Positions 23,764 through 53,595 of a DNA stretch of 64,000 bases are shown piece after piece. The notes beneath the pieces are model-generated. The model made no database searches. It saw only the letters and a program-made list of their open reading frames with translations, and was not told the origin of the DNA. The translations under genes and the position numbers were made by a program. The DNA is from Eubacteriales bacterium (lineage in GTDB: Bacteria > Bacillota > Clostridia > Oscillospirales > CAG-272): the NCBI GenBank assembly GCA_045580325.1, contig JAZNNR010000018.1, positions 33,931 to 97,930 on the forward strand, in the 5' to 3' direction. Each line of letters starts with the position of its first letter. Position 1 is the first letter of the stretch.

Positions 23764-24005
23764 GCGATATAAATCCCTCACAGGATTTGCGATATACGCC
23801 TCACTTCATTCGCGTGCGATATGCCTGCGGCTCGATATGTGCCTTCGACACGTGAGCGCACTGCGTGCGCTTTGGGGCGCGGGATTTATATTTGCGTACT
23901 TTCCAGCACGTTCGCCTTCGGCAAACATATCGCTGACAAGCGACGCTTGTCAATATCGCATTTGCAAGGCAAATATATCGCGCTCGGCAACGCTGAGCAT
24001 ATCGC
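23764..24005. repeat. Mirror-image array of (G/T)CGATAT heptamers alternating with variable short hairpins (array A1)
   Basis: GCGATAT at 23764, 23789 and 23816, and TCGATAT at 23832. ATATCGC at 23927, 23953, 23975 and 23999. Each interval holds a different palindrome. Confidence 0.85.
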
Positions 24006-24967: not shown

Positions 24968-25116
24968 TAAAATATACCTTTTGCTCTCTTGACCCATATA
25001 GAGAGTGTGTGTTTATTGACACGAAAATAAGTGCAAACCCGTAGGGGCTGGCGCCCACGACAGCCCGTGCGTATATTTAGGCTTTTCGGGACGTCGAGGA
25101 CGCCGGTCCCTACAAC
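24968..25116 (-). repeat. Repeat R copy A (contains a REP-like GTAG-hairpin...hairpin-CTAC element, family E1)
   Basis: 24968-25097 is identical base for base to 25731-25860 (130 nt). Contains GTAG-GGGCTG-gcgcccacga-CAGCCC and GGGAC-gtcgaggacgcc-GGTCC-CTAC. Confidence 0.9.
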
Positions 25117-25175: not shown

Positions 25176-25733
25176 ATGCAGAAAAAATCACGCCAAAGAA
25201 AAGAACGACGAAACATGGACCGATCAACCTCTGATGTTCTATCAAGGCAAACGCAAACAATGAAAACAGCTTTCCTCGATTATTTAGGTGCTACAATTAT
25301 GTTTTTTGTGATGGCGCTCGTTGTATTTGTGGTTGGACTTTTGACCGAAGACGCATCGCATTCCAAACGTATTATTTTTGGTGCCACACCTATTATTCTT
25401 GGTTTCACTATATTTTTCGCTTTTCTTTTTCTTCGTCGATTTGTAATTTTTATAAAGATAAATAAGATCAAATCTTCAAGTGAACAAACTATCAAAATTA
25501 CTTGTAAGAAAGTGGCATTTTTAACTCAACCTATATCCAGAAATTCTTTCGTAATTATATGTATTGTTTTAACAGACGAAAACGGCAAAAAGTATTATGA
25601 CATAGTAAATGGAATTTCTGATATTGCTAAAAAAAGAACACGAGCGGAGCTATTAAACGCAAAGATTACACTTAATTGCTATGCGAATACAAAATTTGTG
25701 AAAACCTATCAGGTCGATACAGTCAAGGAGTAA
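25176..25733 (+). CDS. Hypothetical membrane protein (two TM helices plus a C-terminal domain)
   Basis: 185 aa with RBS GAAAGGAAG. It is flanked on both sides by repeat R. Confidence 0.65.
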   Translation: MQKKSRQRKERRNMDRSTSDVLSRQTQTMKTAFLDYLGATIMFFVMALVVFVVGLLTEDASHSKRIIFGATPIILGFTIFFAFLFLRRFVIFIKINKIKSSSEQTIKITCKKVAFLTQPISRNSFVIICIVLTDENGKKYYDIVNGISDIAKKRTRAELLNAKITLNCYANTKFVKTYQVDTVKE

Positions 25734-25882
25734 AATATACCTTTTGCTCTCTTGACCCATATAGAGAGTGTGTGTTTATTGACACGAAAATAAGTGCAAA
25801 CCCGTAGGGGCTGGCGCCCACGACAGCCCGTGCGTATATTTAGGCTTTTCGGGACGTCGAAGGCGCCGTCCCCTACCAAAAG
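25731..25882 (-). repeat. Repeat R copy B (E1 family)
   Basis: The first 130 nt are identical to copy A. It then diverges as GGGACGTCGAAGGCGCCGTCCCCTACCAAAAG. It starts on the stop codon of the preceding gene. Confidence 0.9.
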
Positions 25883-27137: not shown

Positions 27138-27203
27138 TCGATATGCGCTTCACGCTCGATATGCCGCTTGCGGCTCGATATGTTTTGCCTGACGGCAAAA
27201 CGA
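27138..27203 (+). repeat. Three TCGATAT + hairpin units (array A2)
   Basis: CGATAT at 27139, 27157 and 27176, followed respectively by GCG-cttca-CGC, GCCG-ctt-GCGGC and GTTTTGCC-tgac-GGCAAAAC. Confidence 0.85.
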
Positions 27204-49246: not shown

Positions 49247-49413
49247 TTCAAGTTTATCGATTAGATACCTAAGTGAAATAATTATATCATAAAAATTCCA
49301 AAAAGTAAATAGGACGGCTCAATTTTTTACAAATTGAACCGCCCTACGTCTTGTAGGGACAGGCGTCCTCGACTGTCCGCTTATTACGGCGGCAGCAAGC
49401 CACCGCCCTACAA
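49247..49413 (+). repeat. E1+P module copy 1 (REP-like element fused to a leftward promoter and shared 5' UTR)
   Basis: About 97 percent identical to 52373-52531 (roughly 5 substitutions and one 8-nt indel by hand alignment). Core: CCGCCCTAC-gtctt-GTAGGGACAG-gcgtcctcga-CTGTCC...GGCGG-cagcaagcca-CCGCCCTAC. Confidence 0.9.
49281..49309 (-). promoter_or_regulatory. Promoter carried by E1+P copy 1, driving the lipoprotein/PPase-like/HAD operon
   Basis: On the minus strand: TTTACT, 17 nt ending TGa, TATAAT. Confidence 0.65.
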
Positions 49414-50733: not shown

Positions 50734-50770
50734 ATTTGCACCAAGTTTGCACCAAAGCACAAAACCAAGC
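50734..50770. repeat. Fragment of boundary module B (TTTGCACCAA direct repeats)
   Basis: ATTTGCACCAAGTTTGCACCAAAGCACAAAACCAAGC, compared with GTTGCACCAAATTTGCACCAAAATCACACCAAC at 51695-51727. Confidence 0.6.
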
Positions 50771-50812: not shown

Positions 50813-50906
50813 ATACTCTTTGAAATAATACAGGTCATCTCTTTTTTCGGGGGATTAAGCACGCCGTTTGACACCGTAAATAACATTCTGCAAAGAATTT
50901 GCCAAA

Positions 50907-51359
50907 TCACTTTTTCATCTCCATATAAGGAATAACCTCGTAGCCGCATTTTTTATAAACGTTCACGGCTCTTTCGTTTTCTTCTTCGACTTCCAAGCGA
51001 AATATTGCCCCGGGGTACTTATCTTCAATGAATTTAAGAAAACGGCTTCCGATTCCCAAGCCTCTATACTCGGTTTTAATATATATATCCTCGCTCCACA
51101 TACACGGCTTTCCGAATTCTGTGGAAAAGCTTTTGGCAACCATAGCGTATCCTTGTATTTCTTCTGCGTTTTCAAAAATATATCCTTCAAGATACGGATT
51201 ATCACTAAGGCAGGCATTTATGTCTGCTTCGAATATTTCCTGCGAGCCGTTAGTTAATACCGCAGGAGAAGCATAGAAGACTCTCATCATTTCGAGAACC
51301 TGTCCTCTGTCCTTCTCTTCCATACCTCTGATTACACTTTGCACTTTATTTGCCTCCAT
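50907..51359 (-). CDS. GNAT-family N-acetyltransferase
   Basis: Acetyl-CoA motif EYRGLGIGSRFLKFIE. The track start at 51389 lies inside the -10 box of the upstream promoter, so ATG 51359 (MEANKVQ) is preferred. It has no clear Shine-Dalgarno. Confidence 0.8.
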   Translation of the reverse strand: MEANKVQSVIRGMEEKDRGQVLEMMRVFYASPAVLTNGSQEIFEADINACLSDNPYLEGYIFENAEEIQGYAMVAKSFSTEFGKPCMWSEDIYIKTEYRGLGIGSRFLKFIEDKYPGAIFRLEVEEENERAVNVYKKCGYEVIPYMEMKK

Positions 51360-51387
51360 ATTGAAATTCGGGTTATTTATCGTGTGC

Positions 51388-51416
51388 ATTATACCATAAT
51401 TTCGGCAAAAAGTAAA
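51388..51416 (-). promoter_or_regulatory. Promoter carried by E1+P copy 2, driving the GNAT gene
   Basis: On the minus strand: TTTACT, 17 nt ending TGg, TATAAT. Confidence 0.65.
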
Positions 51417-51512
51417 TAGGACTTTTTACAAATTGAACCGCCATACGTCTTGTAGGGACAGGCGTCCTCGACTGTCCACCTGTTACGGCAGCAGTAAGCT
51501 GCCGCCCTACAA
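51388..51512 (+). repeat. E1+P module copy 2
   Basis: AAAAAGTAAATAGGACTTTTTACAAATTGAACCGCCATACGTCTTGTAGGGACAGGCGTCCTCGACTGTCC...GGCAGCAGTAAGCTGCCGCCCTACAA. The second hairpin has compensatory changes (GGCAGC/GCTGCC versus GGCGG/CCGCC). Confidence 0.85.
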
Positions 51513-51516
51513 CCAA

Positions 51517-51578
51517 AACAGACCCCACAAAACCGTGAGGTCTGTAAAAATATTGTTCGAAGAACTTATCTCTTTGAG
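51517..51578 (-). repeat. Copy 3 of the rpsI tail plus terminator (module T)
   Basis: The minus strand reads TCA AAG AGA TAA (S K R stop), then GTTCTTCGAACAATATTTTT, then hairpin ACAGACC..GGTCTGT. It is near-identical to the sequence after the real rpsI stop. Confidence 0.85.
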
Positions 51579-51596
51579 TTTTAGCAATACCGTTTG

Positions 51597-51683
51597 ATAT
51601 CGTGAATATCGTGGAAATATCGTGTGATATCGTGCATTTATCGTGTGTTTTCGTGCGATATCGTGAATATCGTGAGTATCGCC
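51597..51683 (-). repeat. Nine phased (A)TATCGTG / CACGATAT repeats with a period of about 10 bp (array A3)
   Basis: TCGTG begins at 51600, 51609, 51620, 51630, 51641, 51651, 51661, 51670 and 51679. Spacings are 9, 11, 10, 11, 10, 10, 9 and 9. Confidence 0.9.
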
Positions 51684-51689
51684 CTATAA

Positions 51690-51760
51690 AGTGTTGCACC
51701 AAATTTGCACCAAAATCACACCAACATTCAACGCTGTTCTGCTCGACAAATTGGAATTTG
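51690..51760 (-). repeat. Cassette 3'-boundary module B (long form)
   Basis: The minus strand after the TGA of the 51761 gene reads CAAATTCCAATTTGTCGAGCAGAACAGCGTTGAATGTTGGTGTGATTTTGGTGCAAATTTGGTGCAAC. Confidence 0.7.
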
Positions 51761-52363
51761 TCATTTTGTAACACACCAAATAGCTAATGGCACATAGCAG
51801 CTCACTAATACGAGTCTTTGCCAAAGACCACCGTGTCTCAAAACAGTATTTGCGAATTTTTCTTTCTCCCCCATAATGAAGAAGCAGAAGAACAAGAACG
51901 TTGCAATAAAGCTAACAAGCGAGATCGCTCCCATAATTATATCTCCCGCTTGAAACTGCATTATTGCCAAGAGCAACGGTACAGCAATTAATGTCATAAA
52001 TCCGATCGCAGAAGCACCGCCGTGAATTTTAGTCAGTGCATCCTCGTCTTGTCTGTTCTCGTTCAATGGACAAAAGCCCGAAATAATCTCACAGCCGATA
52101 CCGTATATTGCAAGTAATATCCATATTGCGATTGCCAAGCCACCGATGTTTTCTTGATACAACGCATACGGAGCAATACAGAAAACGACACCCGAGAGAA
52201 TGCACCACACATTGTAAATCCACTTCACAGGACTTTGCCGTGAGCCCAGTACCGAGAGTGCCATTTCTTTATGCTTATAGTTTGGATAAAAATGCGCAAG
52301 CAACAATGGTAGTAGATTATCTGCTACCAAAATAATAATCCATAATATTTTCATGTATTTCAT
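51761..52363 (-). CDS. Integral membrane protein (DUF998-like, six TM helices)
   Basis: 200 aa, hydrophobic throughout. The N-terminus ILWIIILVADNLLPLLLAHFYPNYKHKEMALSVLG resembles DUF998 as I recall it. Confidence 0.65.
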   Translation of the reverse strand: MKYMKILWIIILVADNLLPLLLAHFYPNYKHKEMALSVLGSRQSPVKWIYNVWCILSGVVFCIAPYALYQENIGGLAIAIWILLAIYGIGCEIISGFCPLNENRQDEDALTKIHGGASAIGFMTLIAVPLLLAIMQFQAGDIIMGAISLVSFIATFLFFCFFIMGEKEKFANTVLRHGGLWQRLVLVSCYVPLAIWCVTK

Positions 52364-52372
52364 CTCGTCAAA

Positions 52373-52531
52373 TTCAAGTTTATCGATTAGATACCTAAGT
52401 GAAATAATTATATCATAAAAATCCCAAAAAGTAAATAGGATTTTTTACAAATTAAACCGCCCTACGTCTTGTAGGGACAGGCGTCCTCGACTGTGCGACT
52501 ATTACGGCGGCAGCAAGCCACCGCCCTACAA
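52373..52531 (+). repeat. E1+P module copy 3
   Basis: About 97 percent identical to copy 1. It is directly followed by module T copy 2. Confidence 0.9.
52407..52435 (-). promoter_or_regulatory. Promoter carried by E1+P copy 3, driving the DUF998-like gene
   Basis: On the minus strand: TTTACT, 17 nt ending TGa, TATAAT. Confidence 0.65.
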
Positions 52532-52535
52532 CAAA

Positions 52536-52603
52536 AACAGACCCCACAAAAATGTGAGGTCTGTAAAAATATTGTTCGAAGAACTTATCTCTTCGAGAAC
52601 TGT
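52536..52603 (-). repeat. Copy 2 of the rpsI tail plus terminator (module T)
   Basis: The minus strand reads CAG TTC TCG AAG AGA TAA (Q F S K R stop), against the real gene CAG TTC AGC AAG AGA TAA. The same spacer and terminator hairpin follow. Confidence 0.9.
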
Positions 52604-52639: not shown

Positions 52640-52685
52640 GTCGGAACCGCAGCGGCTATGCCGCGAGGATACCTCAGTTCAGCCG

Positions 52686-52742: not shown

Positions 52743-53144
52743 TTATCTCTTGCTGAACTGAGGTGCACGACGTGCTGCCTTGAGACCGTACTTCTTTCTT
52801 TCCTTCATACGAGGGTCGCGAGTGAGGAATCCTGCCTTCTTAAGAGGTGCGCGGAATTCATCGCCTGCGAGAAGAAGTGCTCTTGCAATACCGTGGCGAA
52901 TTGCTCCTGCCTGTCCGGAGAAGCCGCCGCCCTTAACGGTGCAAACTACATCGAACTTACCAACTGTGTCGGTAACTCCGAAGGGCTGGTTTATAACCAA
53001 CTTGAGTGTGTCAAGTCCAAAATAATCATCAATGTCGCGTCCGTTGATGGTAACCTTACCGGTGCCGGCGAACAAACGAACTCTTGCAACAGATTTCTTT
53101 CTTCTTCCTGTGCCGTAAAAATACGGCTTTGCGCTTGTATACAT
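52743..53144 (-). CDS. rpsI: 30S ribosomal protein S9
   Basis: 133 aa with [19 protein letters not shown] and a C-terminal [20 protein letters not shown]. Confidence 0.97.
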
Positions 53145-53166
53145 CGTTTTATTCTCCTTTCACCGA

Positions 53167-53595
53167 TTAAAATTCGTAGTTAACGGGCTGCTGTGCCTCG
53201 TTGTTGTGGTTTGCGCCACGATAGATCTTAAGACGTGTGAGGCTCTTTTCGCCGATCGAGTTCTTAGGAAGCATACCCTTAACTGCAAGCTTCATTGCAA
53301 GGTCGGGCTTTTCGTTCATAAGAGTGCGATAGTTTGTAGCCTTGAGTCCGCCGATGTATCCGGAGTGGCGATAGTAGAACTTCTGATCAAGCTTCTTACC
53401 TGTAAGAATAGCCTTTTCAGCGTTTACGATGATTACGTATTCGCCGCAATCAACGTGGGGTGTGTATTCGGGACGGTGCTTACCGTTAAGAATGTTTGCC
53501 GCTGCTGCTGCAGTCTTACCGAGGGGCTTATTTGCCGCATCGATAATGTACCACTTACGCTCAACGGTTTCTTTTTTTGCCATGTAAGTTGACAT
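53167..53595 (-). CDS. rplM: 50S ribosomal protein L13
   Basis: 142 aa with KWYIIDAANKPLGKTA and YYRHSGYIGGLK. Confidence 0.97.
   Translation of the reverse strand: MSTYMAKKETVERKWYIIDAANKPLGKTAAAAANILNGKHRPEYTPHVDCGEYVIIVNAEKAILTGKKLDQKFYYRHSGYIGGLKATNYRTLMNEKPDLAMKLAVKGMLPKNSIGEKSLTRLKIYRGANHNNEAQQPVNYEF

What the first reader, a model, noticed from the sequence alone, without database searches (positions are those of the whole stretch)
51597..51683. Nine ATATCGTG repeats phased at the helical period
The TCGTG cores start at 51600, 51609, 51620, 51630, 51641, 51651, 51661, 51670 and 51679. The spacings are 9, 11, 10, 11, 10, 10, 9 and 9, with a mean of about 9.9 bp. All sites therefore face one side of the helix.
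The array lies between boundary module B of one cassette and the T/E1/P modules of the next. It shares the CGATAT core with arrays A1 and A2, but has no room for hairpins. Phasing like this is typical of cooperative protein-binding arrays (iteron-like or partition-site-like) or of intrinsically bent DNA. The ORFs predicted across it (for example ...SCDIVHLSCVFVRYREYREYR...) are translation artefacts.
Basis: seen in the sequence. Interest (0 to 1): 0.6.

Follow-up and report, generated by a model that had tools for sequence, protein, structure and literature searches.

The report
Phased protein-binding repeats in an attachment-site arm
The 10-bp-phased repeat array is real and conserved in many uncultured gut Clostridia, and it sits in one arm of the attachment site of small mobile elements that insert at the end of the ribosomal gene rpsI, so it most likely binds a recombination accessory protein rather than acting as a plasmid iteron or partition site.

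Summary
There are eight exact TCGTG cores at the stated positions (spacings 9-11 bp, mean 9.9). Only six are full ATATCGTG; the ninth unit is GTATCGCC.

The array is not a local slippage product. The same irregular array sits in a conserved ~200-bp module in at least 23 species-level MAGs (Eubacteriales/Oscillospiraceae) and in dozens of metagenome contigs. The module is 85-94% identical where rpsI is only 75-80% identical.

Read on the minus strand, the module follows a cargo gene:
- B1;
- TTGGTGCAA x3, 11-bp phased;
- ACGATAT x1-10;
- a copy of the last codons of rpsI (CTCCAAGAGATAA);
- hairpin and terminator.

Related loci hold intact integrative mobilizable elements (IMEs) at rpsI. They encode a lambda/Tn1549-like tyrosine integrase and an excisionase-like ORF, and end in this module. 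The window's cassettes lack an integrase and look like tandem deletion derivatives.

Best reading: the array is an accessory-protein binding platform (excisionase/RDF type, or integrase arm sites) in the P arm of an att site. Binding itself is untested. This is a new member of a known kind, of moderate interest.

The parts
51597..51683 (-). ARR, the array in question. On the minus strand it reads GCGATAC followed by 8 x (C)ACGA(T/A)A(T/A) units at 9-11-bp spacing. It is the variable-number part of the module.
   Evidence: The same unit order is seen in 29 copies of 102-103 nt, and unit number ranges from 1 to 10 across 67 copies.
51694..51724 (-). B2: three TTGGTG(C/T)(A/G)A direct repeats at 11-bp spacing. 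These are candidate integrase arm-type sites.
   Evidence: The same repeats recur on the other side of the core-terminator block (L163, L253, window 50736-50755). Both sets read TTGACGCAA in the divergent L059.
51725..51761 (-). B1: conserved start of the module, directly after the stop codon of the DUF998 cargo gene. It contains the palindrome CAAATTCCAATTTG (51747-51760).
   Evidence: It begins at or within a few nt of the upstream stop codon in most aligned copies, with exceptions (L128 has a 75-nt gap).
51579..51596 (-). Spacer CAAACGGTATTGCTAAAA between the last array unit and the core. Its length is constant (18 nt) in type I copies.
51566..51578 (-). Core copy 3, CTCAAAGAGATAA. It duplicates the last codons and stop codon of rpsI (S K R stop) and is the att core-like direct repeat.
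   Evidence: In L253 the two ends share only CTCCAAG, followed by AGATAA at one end and CGCTGA at the other.
51518..51545 (-). Intrinsic terminator that follows the core, of the same kind as the native rpsI terminator.
51761..52363 (-). Cargo gene of this cassette (DUF998 membrane protein, 200 aa).
   Evidence: The whole unit 52692-51575 is absent from strain L196, which is otherwise 95-96% identical.
52585..52602 (-). Core copy 2, CAGTTCTCGAAGAGATAA. It is a second copy of the rpsI end with a synonymous Ser codon and marks the left boundary of the DUF998 cassette.
52743..52760 (-). The true 3' end of rpsI (CAGTTCAGCAAGAGATAA), which is the attB-side core.
51388..51416 (-). P promoter module (TTTACT-17-TGnTATAAT) of the next cassette.
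   Evidence: The module recurs in front of unrelated cargo genes in other species.
50907..51389 (-). Cargo gene of the next cassette (GNAT acetyltransferase, 160 aa).
50736..50755 (-). A pair of TTGGTGCAA repeats after the terminator of the GNAT cassette (P'-arm-like B2 copy). It is preceded at 50835-50843 by a degenerate core (AAGAGATGA).

Best explanation
The array is part of one arm (the P arm) of an attachment site. The site belongs to a family of small integrative mobilizable elements (IMEs) that insert by tyrosine-integrase recombination into the last codons of rpsI in a clade of uncultured gut Eubacteriales/Oscillospiraceae.

**Layout of an integrated element:** rpsI-core, hairpin, terminator, (TTGGTGCAA repeats), element genes, xis-like ORF, int, promoter, cargo gene, B1, TTGGTGCAA x2-3, ACGATAT x n, core.

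**The window's units.** The DUF998, GNAT and neighbouring units keep only promoter, cargo and att arms. They are integrase-less deletion derivatives stacked in tandem, like CIMEs (att-flanked remnants that lack their own integrase). Window 51388-51761 is therefore an internal, attP-like junction.

**Inferred mechanism.** The TTGGTGCAA repeats occur on both arms and are the integrase arm-type sites. The ACGATAT units lie between these repeats and the core, in the P arm (one intact IME, L253, also has a single ACGATAT in its other arm). They would bind a small accessory recombination protein cooperatively, one monomer per turn. The most likely candidate is the element's excisionase-like RDF; the integrase N-domain is the alternative. 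Binding would bend or wrap the arm to assemble or direct the recombination complex.

**Shown:** the anatomy, the conservation, the core duplication, the intact relatives and the strain-level gain or loss of a unit. **Inferred:** which protein binds, and that the 9-unit form (as opposed to 2-3 units) is functional.
For: **The module is conserved and far from unique.**
- It was found in at least 23 species-level genomes and in most of 55 metagenome loci.
- It is 85-94% identical where rpsI and rplM are 70-80% identical.

**A duplicated rpsI end follows every copy.**
- Every copy is followed by CTCCAAGAGATAA plus the same kinds of hairpin and terminator that follow rpsI itself.
- In L253 the identity between the two ends is only CTCCAAG, followed by AGATAA at one end and CGCTGA at the other. 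Both read K/R-stop, the signature of crossover inside the gene end.

**Intact elements exist in related loci.**
- L163, L253 and L256 lie directly after rplM-rpsI.
- L163 carries a Rep_OBD-helicase protein. All three carry ArdA, a 61-66-aa ORF and a tyrosine integrase.
- The module lies at the far end of L163, L253, L255 and L257. L256's contig stops before that end.

**The integrase is of the heterobivalent type.**
- The AlphaFold model (pLDDT 86) has an N-terminal three-strand sheet plus helix ahead of the SAM-like and catalytic domains.
- Its best PDB matches are Tn1549 integrase and full-length lambda integrase.

**The small ORF resembles an excisionase.** It hits TIGR01764 (excisionase family) at E 2e-4 to 3e-3 in three orthologues, below the curated cut-off.

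**The int-less cassettes look like decay products.** 3' fragments of int (residues 328-387 and 362-387) lie just after array-core-terminator in L063, L020 and L181.

**A unit is gained or lost between strains.** L196, 95-96% identical, lacks exactly window 52692-51575. The indel is bounded by core/terminator direct repeats.

**The core motif and its phasing persist.**
- Variation is concentrated in the spacers, while the ACGATA hexamer is kept.
- L059 (72% identical) keeps ACGATA at 9, 10, 10, 22, 9, 10, 9 bp with different spacers.
- The 'type II/III' arms of L253, L255 and L257 keep three ACGAT units in the same position.

**Literature.**
- RDF sites are direct repeats about one helical turn apart: 5-7 sites for Apl and at least 6 cox-boxes at 10-11 bp (PMC7498355, PMC3936717).
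- IMEs integrated at the 3' end of rpsI are known in streptococci (PMC5090054).
Against: - No binding has been shown.
- The window has no integrase or Xis homologue, so this copy may be inert.
- The excisionase assignment rests on sub-threshold hits only.
- Unit number is bimodal: 2-3 units versus 7-11. Nine sites is more than any RDF array I know of, so much of the long array could be a slippage expansion.
- The 60-bp difference between the two forms is not a whole number of 10.5-bp turns.
- Mean spacing is 9.7-9.9 bp, shorter than the 10-11 bp reported for Cox and Apl.
- A more distant IME (L258) keeps B2 and the core but has no ACGATAT, and its Xis-like protein is not unusually divergent.
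- L253 also has one ACGATAT on the other arm.
- Homologous recombination between the ~100-bp duplicated blocks would give the same tandem structure without site-specific recombination.
Confidence: 0.55

Rival explanations
1. Only two or three ACGATAT units are functional. The 9-unit form is a neutral tandem expansion (replication slippage or unequal exchange between the 18-bp direct repeats CACGATATTCACGATATC) that hitch-hiked with a successful element.
For: - About half of the unbiased copies have only 2-3 units.
- The 42-nt short form is exactly what deletion between the two flanking 18-bp repeats would give.
- Intermediate and longer forms differ by whole units.
- Intact IMEs of the type II/III kind manage with three dispersed units.
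Against: - The 102-nt form keeps the same unit order and length in 29 copies from many species.
- It is present in an intact IME (L163) whose integrase cluster has 244 member sequences.
- Spacers vary more than the ACGATA hexamer along the whole array, not only at its ends.
- The divergent L059 keeps seven phased units.
Confidence: 0.18
2. The repeats are iterons of a replication or transfer origin (ori/oriT) recognised by the element's Rep_OBD-helicase protein. B1 would be the nick hairpin, as in pMV158-type origins with 11-bp direct repeats.
For: - Intact relatives encode a Rep_OBD plus SF3-helicase protein.
- RepB-family proteins bind phased direct repeats (my own knowledge of the pMV158 dso).
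- B1 can form a 7-bp hairpin, and one compensatory change is visible in L020.
Against: - The array is 3-4 kb from rep, separated from it by ardA, xis, int and cargo.
- Other short repeats lie right next to rep: GGACATAT in L163, and 9- and 14-bp repeats in L255.
- The array is always 18 nt from the duplicated rpsI core.
- B2 is split across the core onto both arms, which fits integrase arm sites better.
- The B1 palindrome is not kept in L059.
Confidence: 0.1
3. The element acts as RNA: an unstructured 3'-UTR platform of CACGAUAU motifs between stop codon and terminator, binding an RNA-binding protein or acting as a Rho-loading (C>G) stretch.
For: - The module always has the orientation of the upstream gene.
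- It lies between that gene's stop codon and an intrinsic terminator, so it is transcribed.
- The array strand is C-rich and G-poor and is predicted to be unstructured.
Against: - The orientation is already explained by the element's layout: cargo is transcribed towards the att end.
- There is no Rfam match and no covariation (0 of 41 pairs).
- In L257 the module follows int directly, after int's own terminator-like hairpin.
- The B2 repeats recur after the terminator, where they would not be in the transcript.
Confidence: 0.07
4. One reading: a partition (parC/parS-like) centromere, or intrinsically bent DNA.
For: - Phased direct repeats of about 10 bp resemble ParR-parC arrays (my own knowledge; PMC9426499 and PMC5016525 were listed).
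- Sister strains carry a ParA/ParB island at the same rpsI site.
Against: - There are no par genes next to any copy of this module.
- The module is chromosomal, with several copies in tandem.
- The ParA/ParB island has different repeats and no ACGATAT array in its first 700 bp.
- Predicted curvature is average: 42nd percentile, against a strong signal for an A-tract control.
- There are no plasmid or phage matches.
Confidence: 0.03

Closest known systems
RDF (excisionase) binding arrays in att arms: lambda Xis X1-X1.5-X2, P2 Cox boxes, 186 Apl sites
   Same: - Short direct repeats about one helical turn apart.
- They lie in one arm, between integrase arm-type sites and the core.
- Individual sites are degenerate.
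- 5-7 or more sites are known for Apl and Cox (PMC7498355, PMC3936717).
- A small wHTH-like ORF sits just upstream of int in intact relatives.
   Different: - Up to 9-10 units, with a bimodal copy number (2-3 versus 7-11).
- Mean spacing is 9.7-9.9 bp rather than 10-11 bp.
- The cognate protein is only weakly recognisable as an excisionase.
- No binding data exist.
- This particular copy sits in an integrase-less remnant.
Tn916/Tn1549-type and lambda-type heterobivalent integrase att sites (arm-type direct repeats on both arms)
   Same: - The integrase of the intact relatives models like Tn1549 and lambda integrase, with an N-terminal sheet-plus-helix domain.
- 11-bp direct repeats (TTGGTGCAA) occur on both arms.
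- A 7-bp identity (CTCCAAG) lies at the crossover.
   Different: - Tn916-type elements insert with low specificity. These elements are specific for the rpsI end.
- It is not settled which repeat family (B2 or the array) is the integrase arm site.
IMESag-rpsI and other streptococcal ICEs/IMEs integrated at the 3' end of rpsI, and CIMEs (PMC5090054, PMC5357655)
   Same: - Tyrosine-integrase elements target the 3' end of rpsI.
- They are flanked by att direct repeats.
- Integrase-less att-flanked remnants exist, and accretion in tandem is known.
   Different: - The host clade is different (uncultured Oscillospiraceae).
- The gene content is different: Rep_OBD-helicase and ArdA, rather than Rep_trans and a MOBV relaxase.
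- Here there are long tandem runs of single-gene units, each with the same portable promoter module.
Integron cassette arrays (attC)
   Same: Tandem, strain-variable single-gene units (GNAT, small membrane proteins and so on) are separated by a conserved recombination-site module next to a fixed chromosomal anchor.
   Different: - There is no IntI and no attC-type imperfect palindrome; the DNA fold is unremarkable.
- Each unit carries its own promoter and terminator.
- The repeats are direct, not inverted.
BOX/REP-type mosaic intergenic repeats with a variable-number internal module
   Same: A modular, multi-copy intergenic element whose middle module varies in copy number, located between a stop codon and a terminator.
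   Different: - The copies I could place are mostly tied to the rpsI end or its duplicates, rather than scattered.
- There is no RNA structure or covariation.

Membership tests
att site of a site-specific integrative element (tyrosine integrase, 3'-end-of-gene target) | A direct repeat of the target-gene end (core) at both boundaries of the element. | tested here: met
   - rpsI-end copies lie at window 52743-52760, 52585-52602 and 51566-51578, with a degenerate copy at 50835-50843.
- The same is seen in all related loci.
- L253 has a 7-bp identity, CTCCAAG, at its two ends.
att site of a site-specific integrative element (tyrosine integrase, 3'-end-of-gene target) | An integrase gene is present in the element. 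| tested here: not met
   - There is no integrase homologue anywhere in the 64-kb window.
- It is met only in relatives: L163, L253, L255, L256, L257 and L258.
- Fragments of the int 3' end occur in int-less units elsewhere.
- The window copy is therefore filed as a remnant (CIME-like), not as an autonomous element.
att site of a site-specific integrative element (tyrosine integrase, 3'-end-of-gene target) | Presence/absence polymorphism bounded by the core repeats. | tested here: met
   Strain L196 (95-96% identical) lacks window 52692-51575. The junction lies inside the duplicated core/terminator block.
att site of a site-specific integrative element (tyrosine integrase, 3'-end-of-gene target) | Excision to a circle and an empty attB site. 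| not testable with these tools
   This needs read-level data or PCR.
Heterobivalent-integrase arm-type sites | The integrase has a separate N-terminal arm-binding domain. | tested here: met
   - The model has strands 14-18, 21-30 and 36-44 plus helix 51-70 ahead of the SAM-like domain.
- Full-length lambda integrase aligns over 369-379 columns.
- Pfam does not recognise the domain.
Heterobivalent-integrase arm-type sites | The same short repeat occurs on both arms of the att site. | tested here: met
   - This is met for TTGGTGCAA (B2).
- Both sets change together to TTGACGCAA in L059.
- It is not met for the ACGATAT array, which is essentially on one arm only.
RDF/excisionase binding array | Direct repeats about one helical turn apart. 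| tested here: met
   Spacings are 9-11 bp, with a mean of 9.9 in the window and 9.7 in the family.
RDF/excisionase binding array | Position between the arm-type sites and the core, on one arm. | tested here: met
   The order B2, array, 18 nt, core holds in all type I copies. ACGAT units occupy the same interval in L253, L255 and L257.
RDF/excisionase binding array | A cognate RDF gene is present. | tested here: inconclusive
   - A 61-68-aa ORF lies directly upstream of int in six relatives.
- It hits TIGR01764 at E 2e-4 to 3e-3, below the cut-off.
- Its HTH_17 and Phage_Cox hits are weak.
- A PDB sequence search was not significant.
- No such ORF exists in the window.
RDF/excisionase binding array | Cooperative binding and bending by the RDF. 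| not testable with these tools
   This needs EMSA or footprinting.
Plasmid iterons / replication origin | The repeats lie beside the rep gene or an AT-rich unwinding region of a replicon. | tested here: not met
   - The window has no rep gene.
- In intact relatives the array is 3-4 kb from rep, and other repeats lie next to rep.
- There is no plasmid match.
Partition centromere (parC/parS/tubC) | The array lies adjacent to a parA/parM/tubZ adaptor operon. | tested here: not met
   No par genes lie next to any copy.
Integron attC | An imperfect inverted repeat that folds as a single-stranded hairpin, with IntI nearby. | tested here: not met
   The DNA fold has z = -1.2 and shows no long hairpin. 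The repeats are direct, and there is no integron integrase.
Intrinsically curved DNA | Predicted curvature well above the genome background. | tested here: not met
   The end-to-end/contour ratio is 0.968, against a window mean of 0.964 (42nd percentile). The A-tract control gave 0.56. The wedge parameters were taken from memory.
Structured or known RNA family | An Rfam match or covarying base pairs. | tested here: not met
   There is no Rfam hit at gathering or E-value thresholds. None of 41 predicted pairs shows compensatory change.

The most novel reading that the evidence does not exclude
The rpsI locus of these gut Clostridia works as an integron-like gene-capture platform built on a lambda/Tn916-type recombination system. 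Integrase-less mini-elements would be captured, stacked and exchanged in trans by the integrase and Xis of resident or visiting IMEs. Each mini-element has a portable promoter, one to three cargo genes and an attP-like site with an expandable RDF array. The number of ACGATAT units would tune how readily each cassette is excised.
Probability: 0.2. Interest if true: 0.7.

Novelty: new member of a known kind. Interest (0 to 1): 0.45.

Why it matters
- **It explains the window's repeats.** The cassettes and boundary modules between about 47.7 and 52.8 kb become a stack of decayed integrative elements anchored at the end of rpsI.
- **It identifies an undescribed element family.** These rpsI-targeting IMEs occur in uncultured gut Eubacteriales/Oscillospiraceae, and their att-site anatomy is unusually easy to read.
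- **It gives mobile-element biologists a natural test series.** The att arms carry 1 to 10 phased accessory sites, which could show how site number affects excision control. There is also a possible integron-like route of gene exchange in Gram-positive gut bacteria.
- **It helps annotation.** The module marks cassette boundaries, and the ORFs called across it should be dropped.

Tried and rejected
- **Local slippage product.** Rejected: the same irregular array occurs in many species.
- **Known RNA family or structured RNA.** No Rfam hit, no covariation, and folds no better than expected apart from the terminator.
- **attC-like hairpin.** The DNA fold is unremarkable.
- **Intrinsic curvature.** The predicted value is average.
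- **Plasmid or phage origin.**
  - No blastn match in PLSDB or INPHARED.
  - The module's B2 junction (AATTTGGTGCAACACTTTAT) is absent from IMG/VR.
  - The three-unit TATCGTG pattern gave 17 unrelated IMG/VR arrays.
- **Literature search for the sequence.** No hits. A search on rpsI with gene cassettes was uninformative.
- **XRE-HTH genes as a co-occurring binder.** They are present in 8 of 23 loci, but as ordinary cargo at variable positions.
- **TATCGTG arrays in Bacteroidales, Prevotella and Proteobacteria from the pattern scan.** These are unrelated 9- or 11-bp tandem repeats, some of them coding.
- **Close integrase relatives in viral contigs.** Only relatives of 33% identity or less were found.
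- **Arm-binding domain by Pfam.** Not recognised. The structure model was used instead.
- **Covariation between the Xis-like protein and the array motif.** Inconclusive.
- **Exact-protein look-up of the DUF998 cargo.** It returned only a 761-bp contig.

Full report

Window 51597-51683 holds eight exact TCGTG cores at 51600, 09, 20, 30, 41, 51, 61 and 70. Six of them are full ATATCGTG. Two are variants (TTATCGTG, TTTTCGTG), and the ninth unit is degenerate, GTATCGCC. The spacings are 9, 11, 10, 11, 10, 10, 9, 9, with a mean of 9.875 bp.

Tandem Repeats Finder reports the array with period 10 or 21. Eight cores in 75 bp against 0.05 expected gives P of about 1e-15. The observation therefore stands, except that "nine ATATCGTG" overstates the regularity.

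"All on one face" is only approximate. At 9.7-9.9 bp per unit against 10.5 bp per turn, the sites rotate about 170 degrees or more across the array.

**2. Immediate context**

The array is intergenic, between two minus-strand genes: a DUF998 membrane protein (51761-52363) and a GNAT acetyltransferase (50907-51389). The order on the minus strand is:

- DUF998 stop codon;
- module B (51761-51691);
- the array;
- a short spacer;
- CTCAAAGAGATAA (51578-51566);
- an intrinsic terminator (51545-51518);
- the E1 repeat;
- a strong promoter module TTTACT-17-TGnTATAAT (51416-51388);
- the GNAT gene.

rpsI and rplM lie just upstream, at 52743-53595 on the minus strand. The region from 48 to 52 kb has 36-38% G+C against 43-49% around it.

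**3. It is a conserved element, not a local accident**

A pattern scan of one genome per species found the same irregular array in 23 loci. The order of unit variants is identical. The hits come from about 23 Eubacteriales, Clostridia and Oscillospiraceae gut MAGs.

Similarity covers a sharply bounded stretch of about 200 bp, window 51562-51761, often in several copies per locus. A second scan, anchored outside the array, returned 55 metagenome loci, most of them carrying the module.

The module is 85-94% identical between genomes whose rpsI and rplM genes are only 70-80% identical. That points to horizontal spread, strong constraint, or both. Nothing similar exists in the plasmid or phage collections, or in IMG/VR for the module's B2 junction. 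There is no Rfam match.

**4. Variation within the array**

Among 67 complete copies, the stretch between the two anchors is bimodal. Seventeen copies are 42 nt long (three units) and 30 are 102-103 nt (nine units). Intermediates and longer forms differ by whole units. In the length-unbiased metagenome set, 18 of 36 copies have 2-3 units and 14 of 36 have 7-11.

The short form is exactly what deletion between the two 18-bp direct repeats CACGATATTCACGATATC would produce.

Within the 102-nt form, variation is concentrated in the spacers. The ACGATA hexamer averages about 0.6 minor alleles per position, against about 3 in the spacers. A rank test that used the full 8-mer as the core was not significant (P=0.20).

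A 72%-identical homologue (L059) keeps seven ACGATA units at 9, 10, 10, 22, 9, 10 and 9 bp, with entirely different spacers. The motif and its roughly 10-bp phasing are therefore what is conserved. That favours a binding site over a neutral minisatellite.

**5. The key to the context is a duplicated rpsI end**

In every related species rpsI ends with ...CAGTTCTCCAAGAGATAA, followed by a small hairpin and a terminator. Every array is followed by AAAACTCCAAGAGATAA and the same kinds of hairpin and terminator.

The window has the true rpsI end at 52743-52760. It has copies at 52585-52602 and 51566-51578, and a degenerate copy at 50835-50843.

In L253 the two ends of an intact element share only CTCCAAG, followed by AGATAA at rpsI and CGCTGA at the far end. 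Both encode the same C-terminus and a stop codon. This is the classical footprint of site-specific integration into the 3' end of a gene.

**6. Intact elements exist**

A motif search found a tyrosine recombinase in L163. Pfam annotates the island after rpsI as follows:

- a SAM-like protein;
- a Rep_OBD-helicase protein;
- ArdA;
- a 64-aa ORF;
- a 387-aa integrase;
- the P promoter;
- a nitroreductase cargo gene;
- B1, B2, a nine-unit array and the core.

Integrase homologues of 74-75% identity sit in islands with the same ArdA, small ORF and int order directly after rplM-rpsI in L253 and L256. L255 and L257 (74% and 66% identical) show int followed by B2, three dispersed ACGAT units, the core, a hairpin and a terminator. 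In L257 this is followed by integrase-less P-D5-GNAT cassettes.

The integrase model (pLDDT 86) has an N-terminal three-strand sheet plus helix. It matches Tn1549 integrase and full-length lambda integrase best. It is therefore a heterobivalent integrase, a type that needs arm-type sites.

The small ORF before int hits the excisionase family TIGR01764 at E 2e-4 to 3e-3 in three orthologues. These hits are below the curated cut-off. The HTH_17 and Cox hits are weak.

**7. The cassettes are decayed elements**

3' fragments of int (residues 328-387, 362-387 and 364-387) lie just after array-core-terminator in L063, L020 and L181. This is the product expected if an internal deletion removed everything from the left end into int.

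A strain 95-96% identical to the window (L196) lacks exactly window 52692-51575, which spans core, terminator, E1, P, DUF998, B and the array. The indel is bounded by the duplicated core/terminator block. The same strain has a DMP19 gene where the window has three genes, between the same P/D5 and B modules.

Other strains with an identical RpsI protein carry a different ParA/ParB/SpaA island right after the rpsI stop codon. The end of rpsI is thus an integration hot spot, as is known for streptococcal IMEs (PMC5090054).

The window itself has no integrase or Xis homologue.

**8. What the array most likely does**

The TTGGTGCAA repeats (B2, 11-bp phased) occur on both sides of the core block. 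In L059 both sets have changed together to TTGACGCAA. That is the behaviour expected of integrase arm-type sites.

The ACGATAT units lie between B2 and the core, essentially on one arm. This is the position and form of RDF sites: lambda Xis, P2 Cox and 186 Apl bind direct repeats one helical turn apart, with 5-7 or more sites, and bind cooperatively with bending (PMC7498355, PMC3936717).

I therefore read the array as a cooperative binding platform for the element's excisionase-like protein, or alternatively for the integrase N-domain. The platform would shape the P arm during recombination.

- **Shown:** the anatomy and the comparative evidence.
- **Inferred:** the identity of the binder, and the functionality of nine units as opposed to three.

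**9. Rivals**

- **Partly neutral expansion of a 2-3-site motif.** This is compatible with the main reading and quite possible.
- **Rep iterons or oriT.** Intact relatives encode a Rep_OBD protein, but other repeats lie beside rep, and the array is tied to the core instead.
- **An RNA-level 3'-UTR function.** The module is transcribed, but there is no structure or covariation, and B2 recurs after the terminator.
- **Partition site or bent DNA.** There are no par genes beside any copy, and predicted curvature is average.

**10. Open points**

- An inverted copy of the rpsI end lies after the terminator.
- Unit number is bimodal.
- ACGATAT is absent from a more distant IME (L258), with no matching divergence in its Xis-like protein.

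**Verdict**

This is a real and conserved feature, best explained as an att-arm accessory-site array of a previously undescribed rpsI-targeting IME family. The copy in the window lies inside a stack of integrase-less remnants. It is a new member of a known kind, of moderate interest.

Noticed in passing
L193-L195, L197, L198 (conspecific strains); corresponds to window 52743: Strains with an identical RpsI protein carry a different island directly after the rpsI stop codon: a 51-aa ORF, ParA, ParB_N, a 300-aa protein and a 1563-aa SpaA-domain surface protein. TTTGACC-type repeats follow the terminator. This is a second kind of rpsI-targeting element.
   Followed up: partly
window 23765-23833, 23927-23999, 27139-27176: These are clusters of GCGATAT / ATATCGC heptamers, each followed by a different small hairpin. 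Two sets of four are in inverted orientation, and there is also a 19-bp-period trio. They look REP/BIME-like and share only the CGATAT hexamer with the array.
   Followed up: partly
window 52671-52683; L025, L068, L144 after their terminators: An inverted copy of the last 13-27 nt of rpsI lies just downstream of the rpsI-type terminator. The block duplicated at each junction is therefore core, hairpin, terminator, inverted core (about 100 bp). Its role is unknown.
   Followed up: partly
window 52435-52407, 51416-51388, 49309-49281 (minus strand): The same promoter module (TTTACT-17-TGnTATAAT, with the D5 5'-UTR) precedes unrelated cargo genes in the window and in many other species, including directly after int in L163.
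   Followed up: partly
window 49345-49413, 51443-51512, 52463-52531; fragment at 25093-25115: The E1 repeat (GTAGGG, two internal hairpins, CCCTAC) is inserted between terminator and promoter modules. It is a separate small repeat family.
   Followed up: no
window 49246-47763 versus L196 4642-5243: Between the same P/D5 and B modules, the window has three genes (90 aa, 117 aa and a HAD hydrolase), while the 95%-identical strain L196 has a single DMP19 gene. This is a cassette replacement between strains.
   Followed up: partly
L086, L089, L091, L094, L098, L100 (Bacteroidales, Prevotella and Paludibacteraceae MAGs): Long 11-bp tandem arrays ATCTATCGTG(C/T) lie next to ATCTACGTTAC and ATCCTCCGTGC arrays, after terminators. 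They are unrelated to this module.
   Followed up: no
window 24968-25113 and 25731-25876: A 146-nt direct repeat, 97% identical, lies in another low-G+C stretch (24-26 kb, 37% G+C).
   Followed up: no
L255 2925-4184; L258 3969-5237: A TnpB (OrfB_IS605/Cas12f-like) gene lies at the left side of two of the integrase-bearing islands.
   Followed up: no
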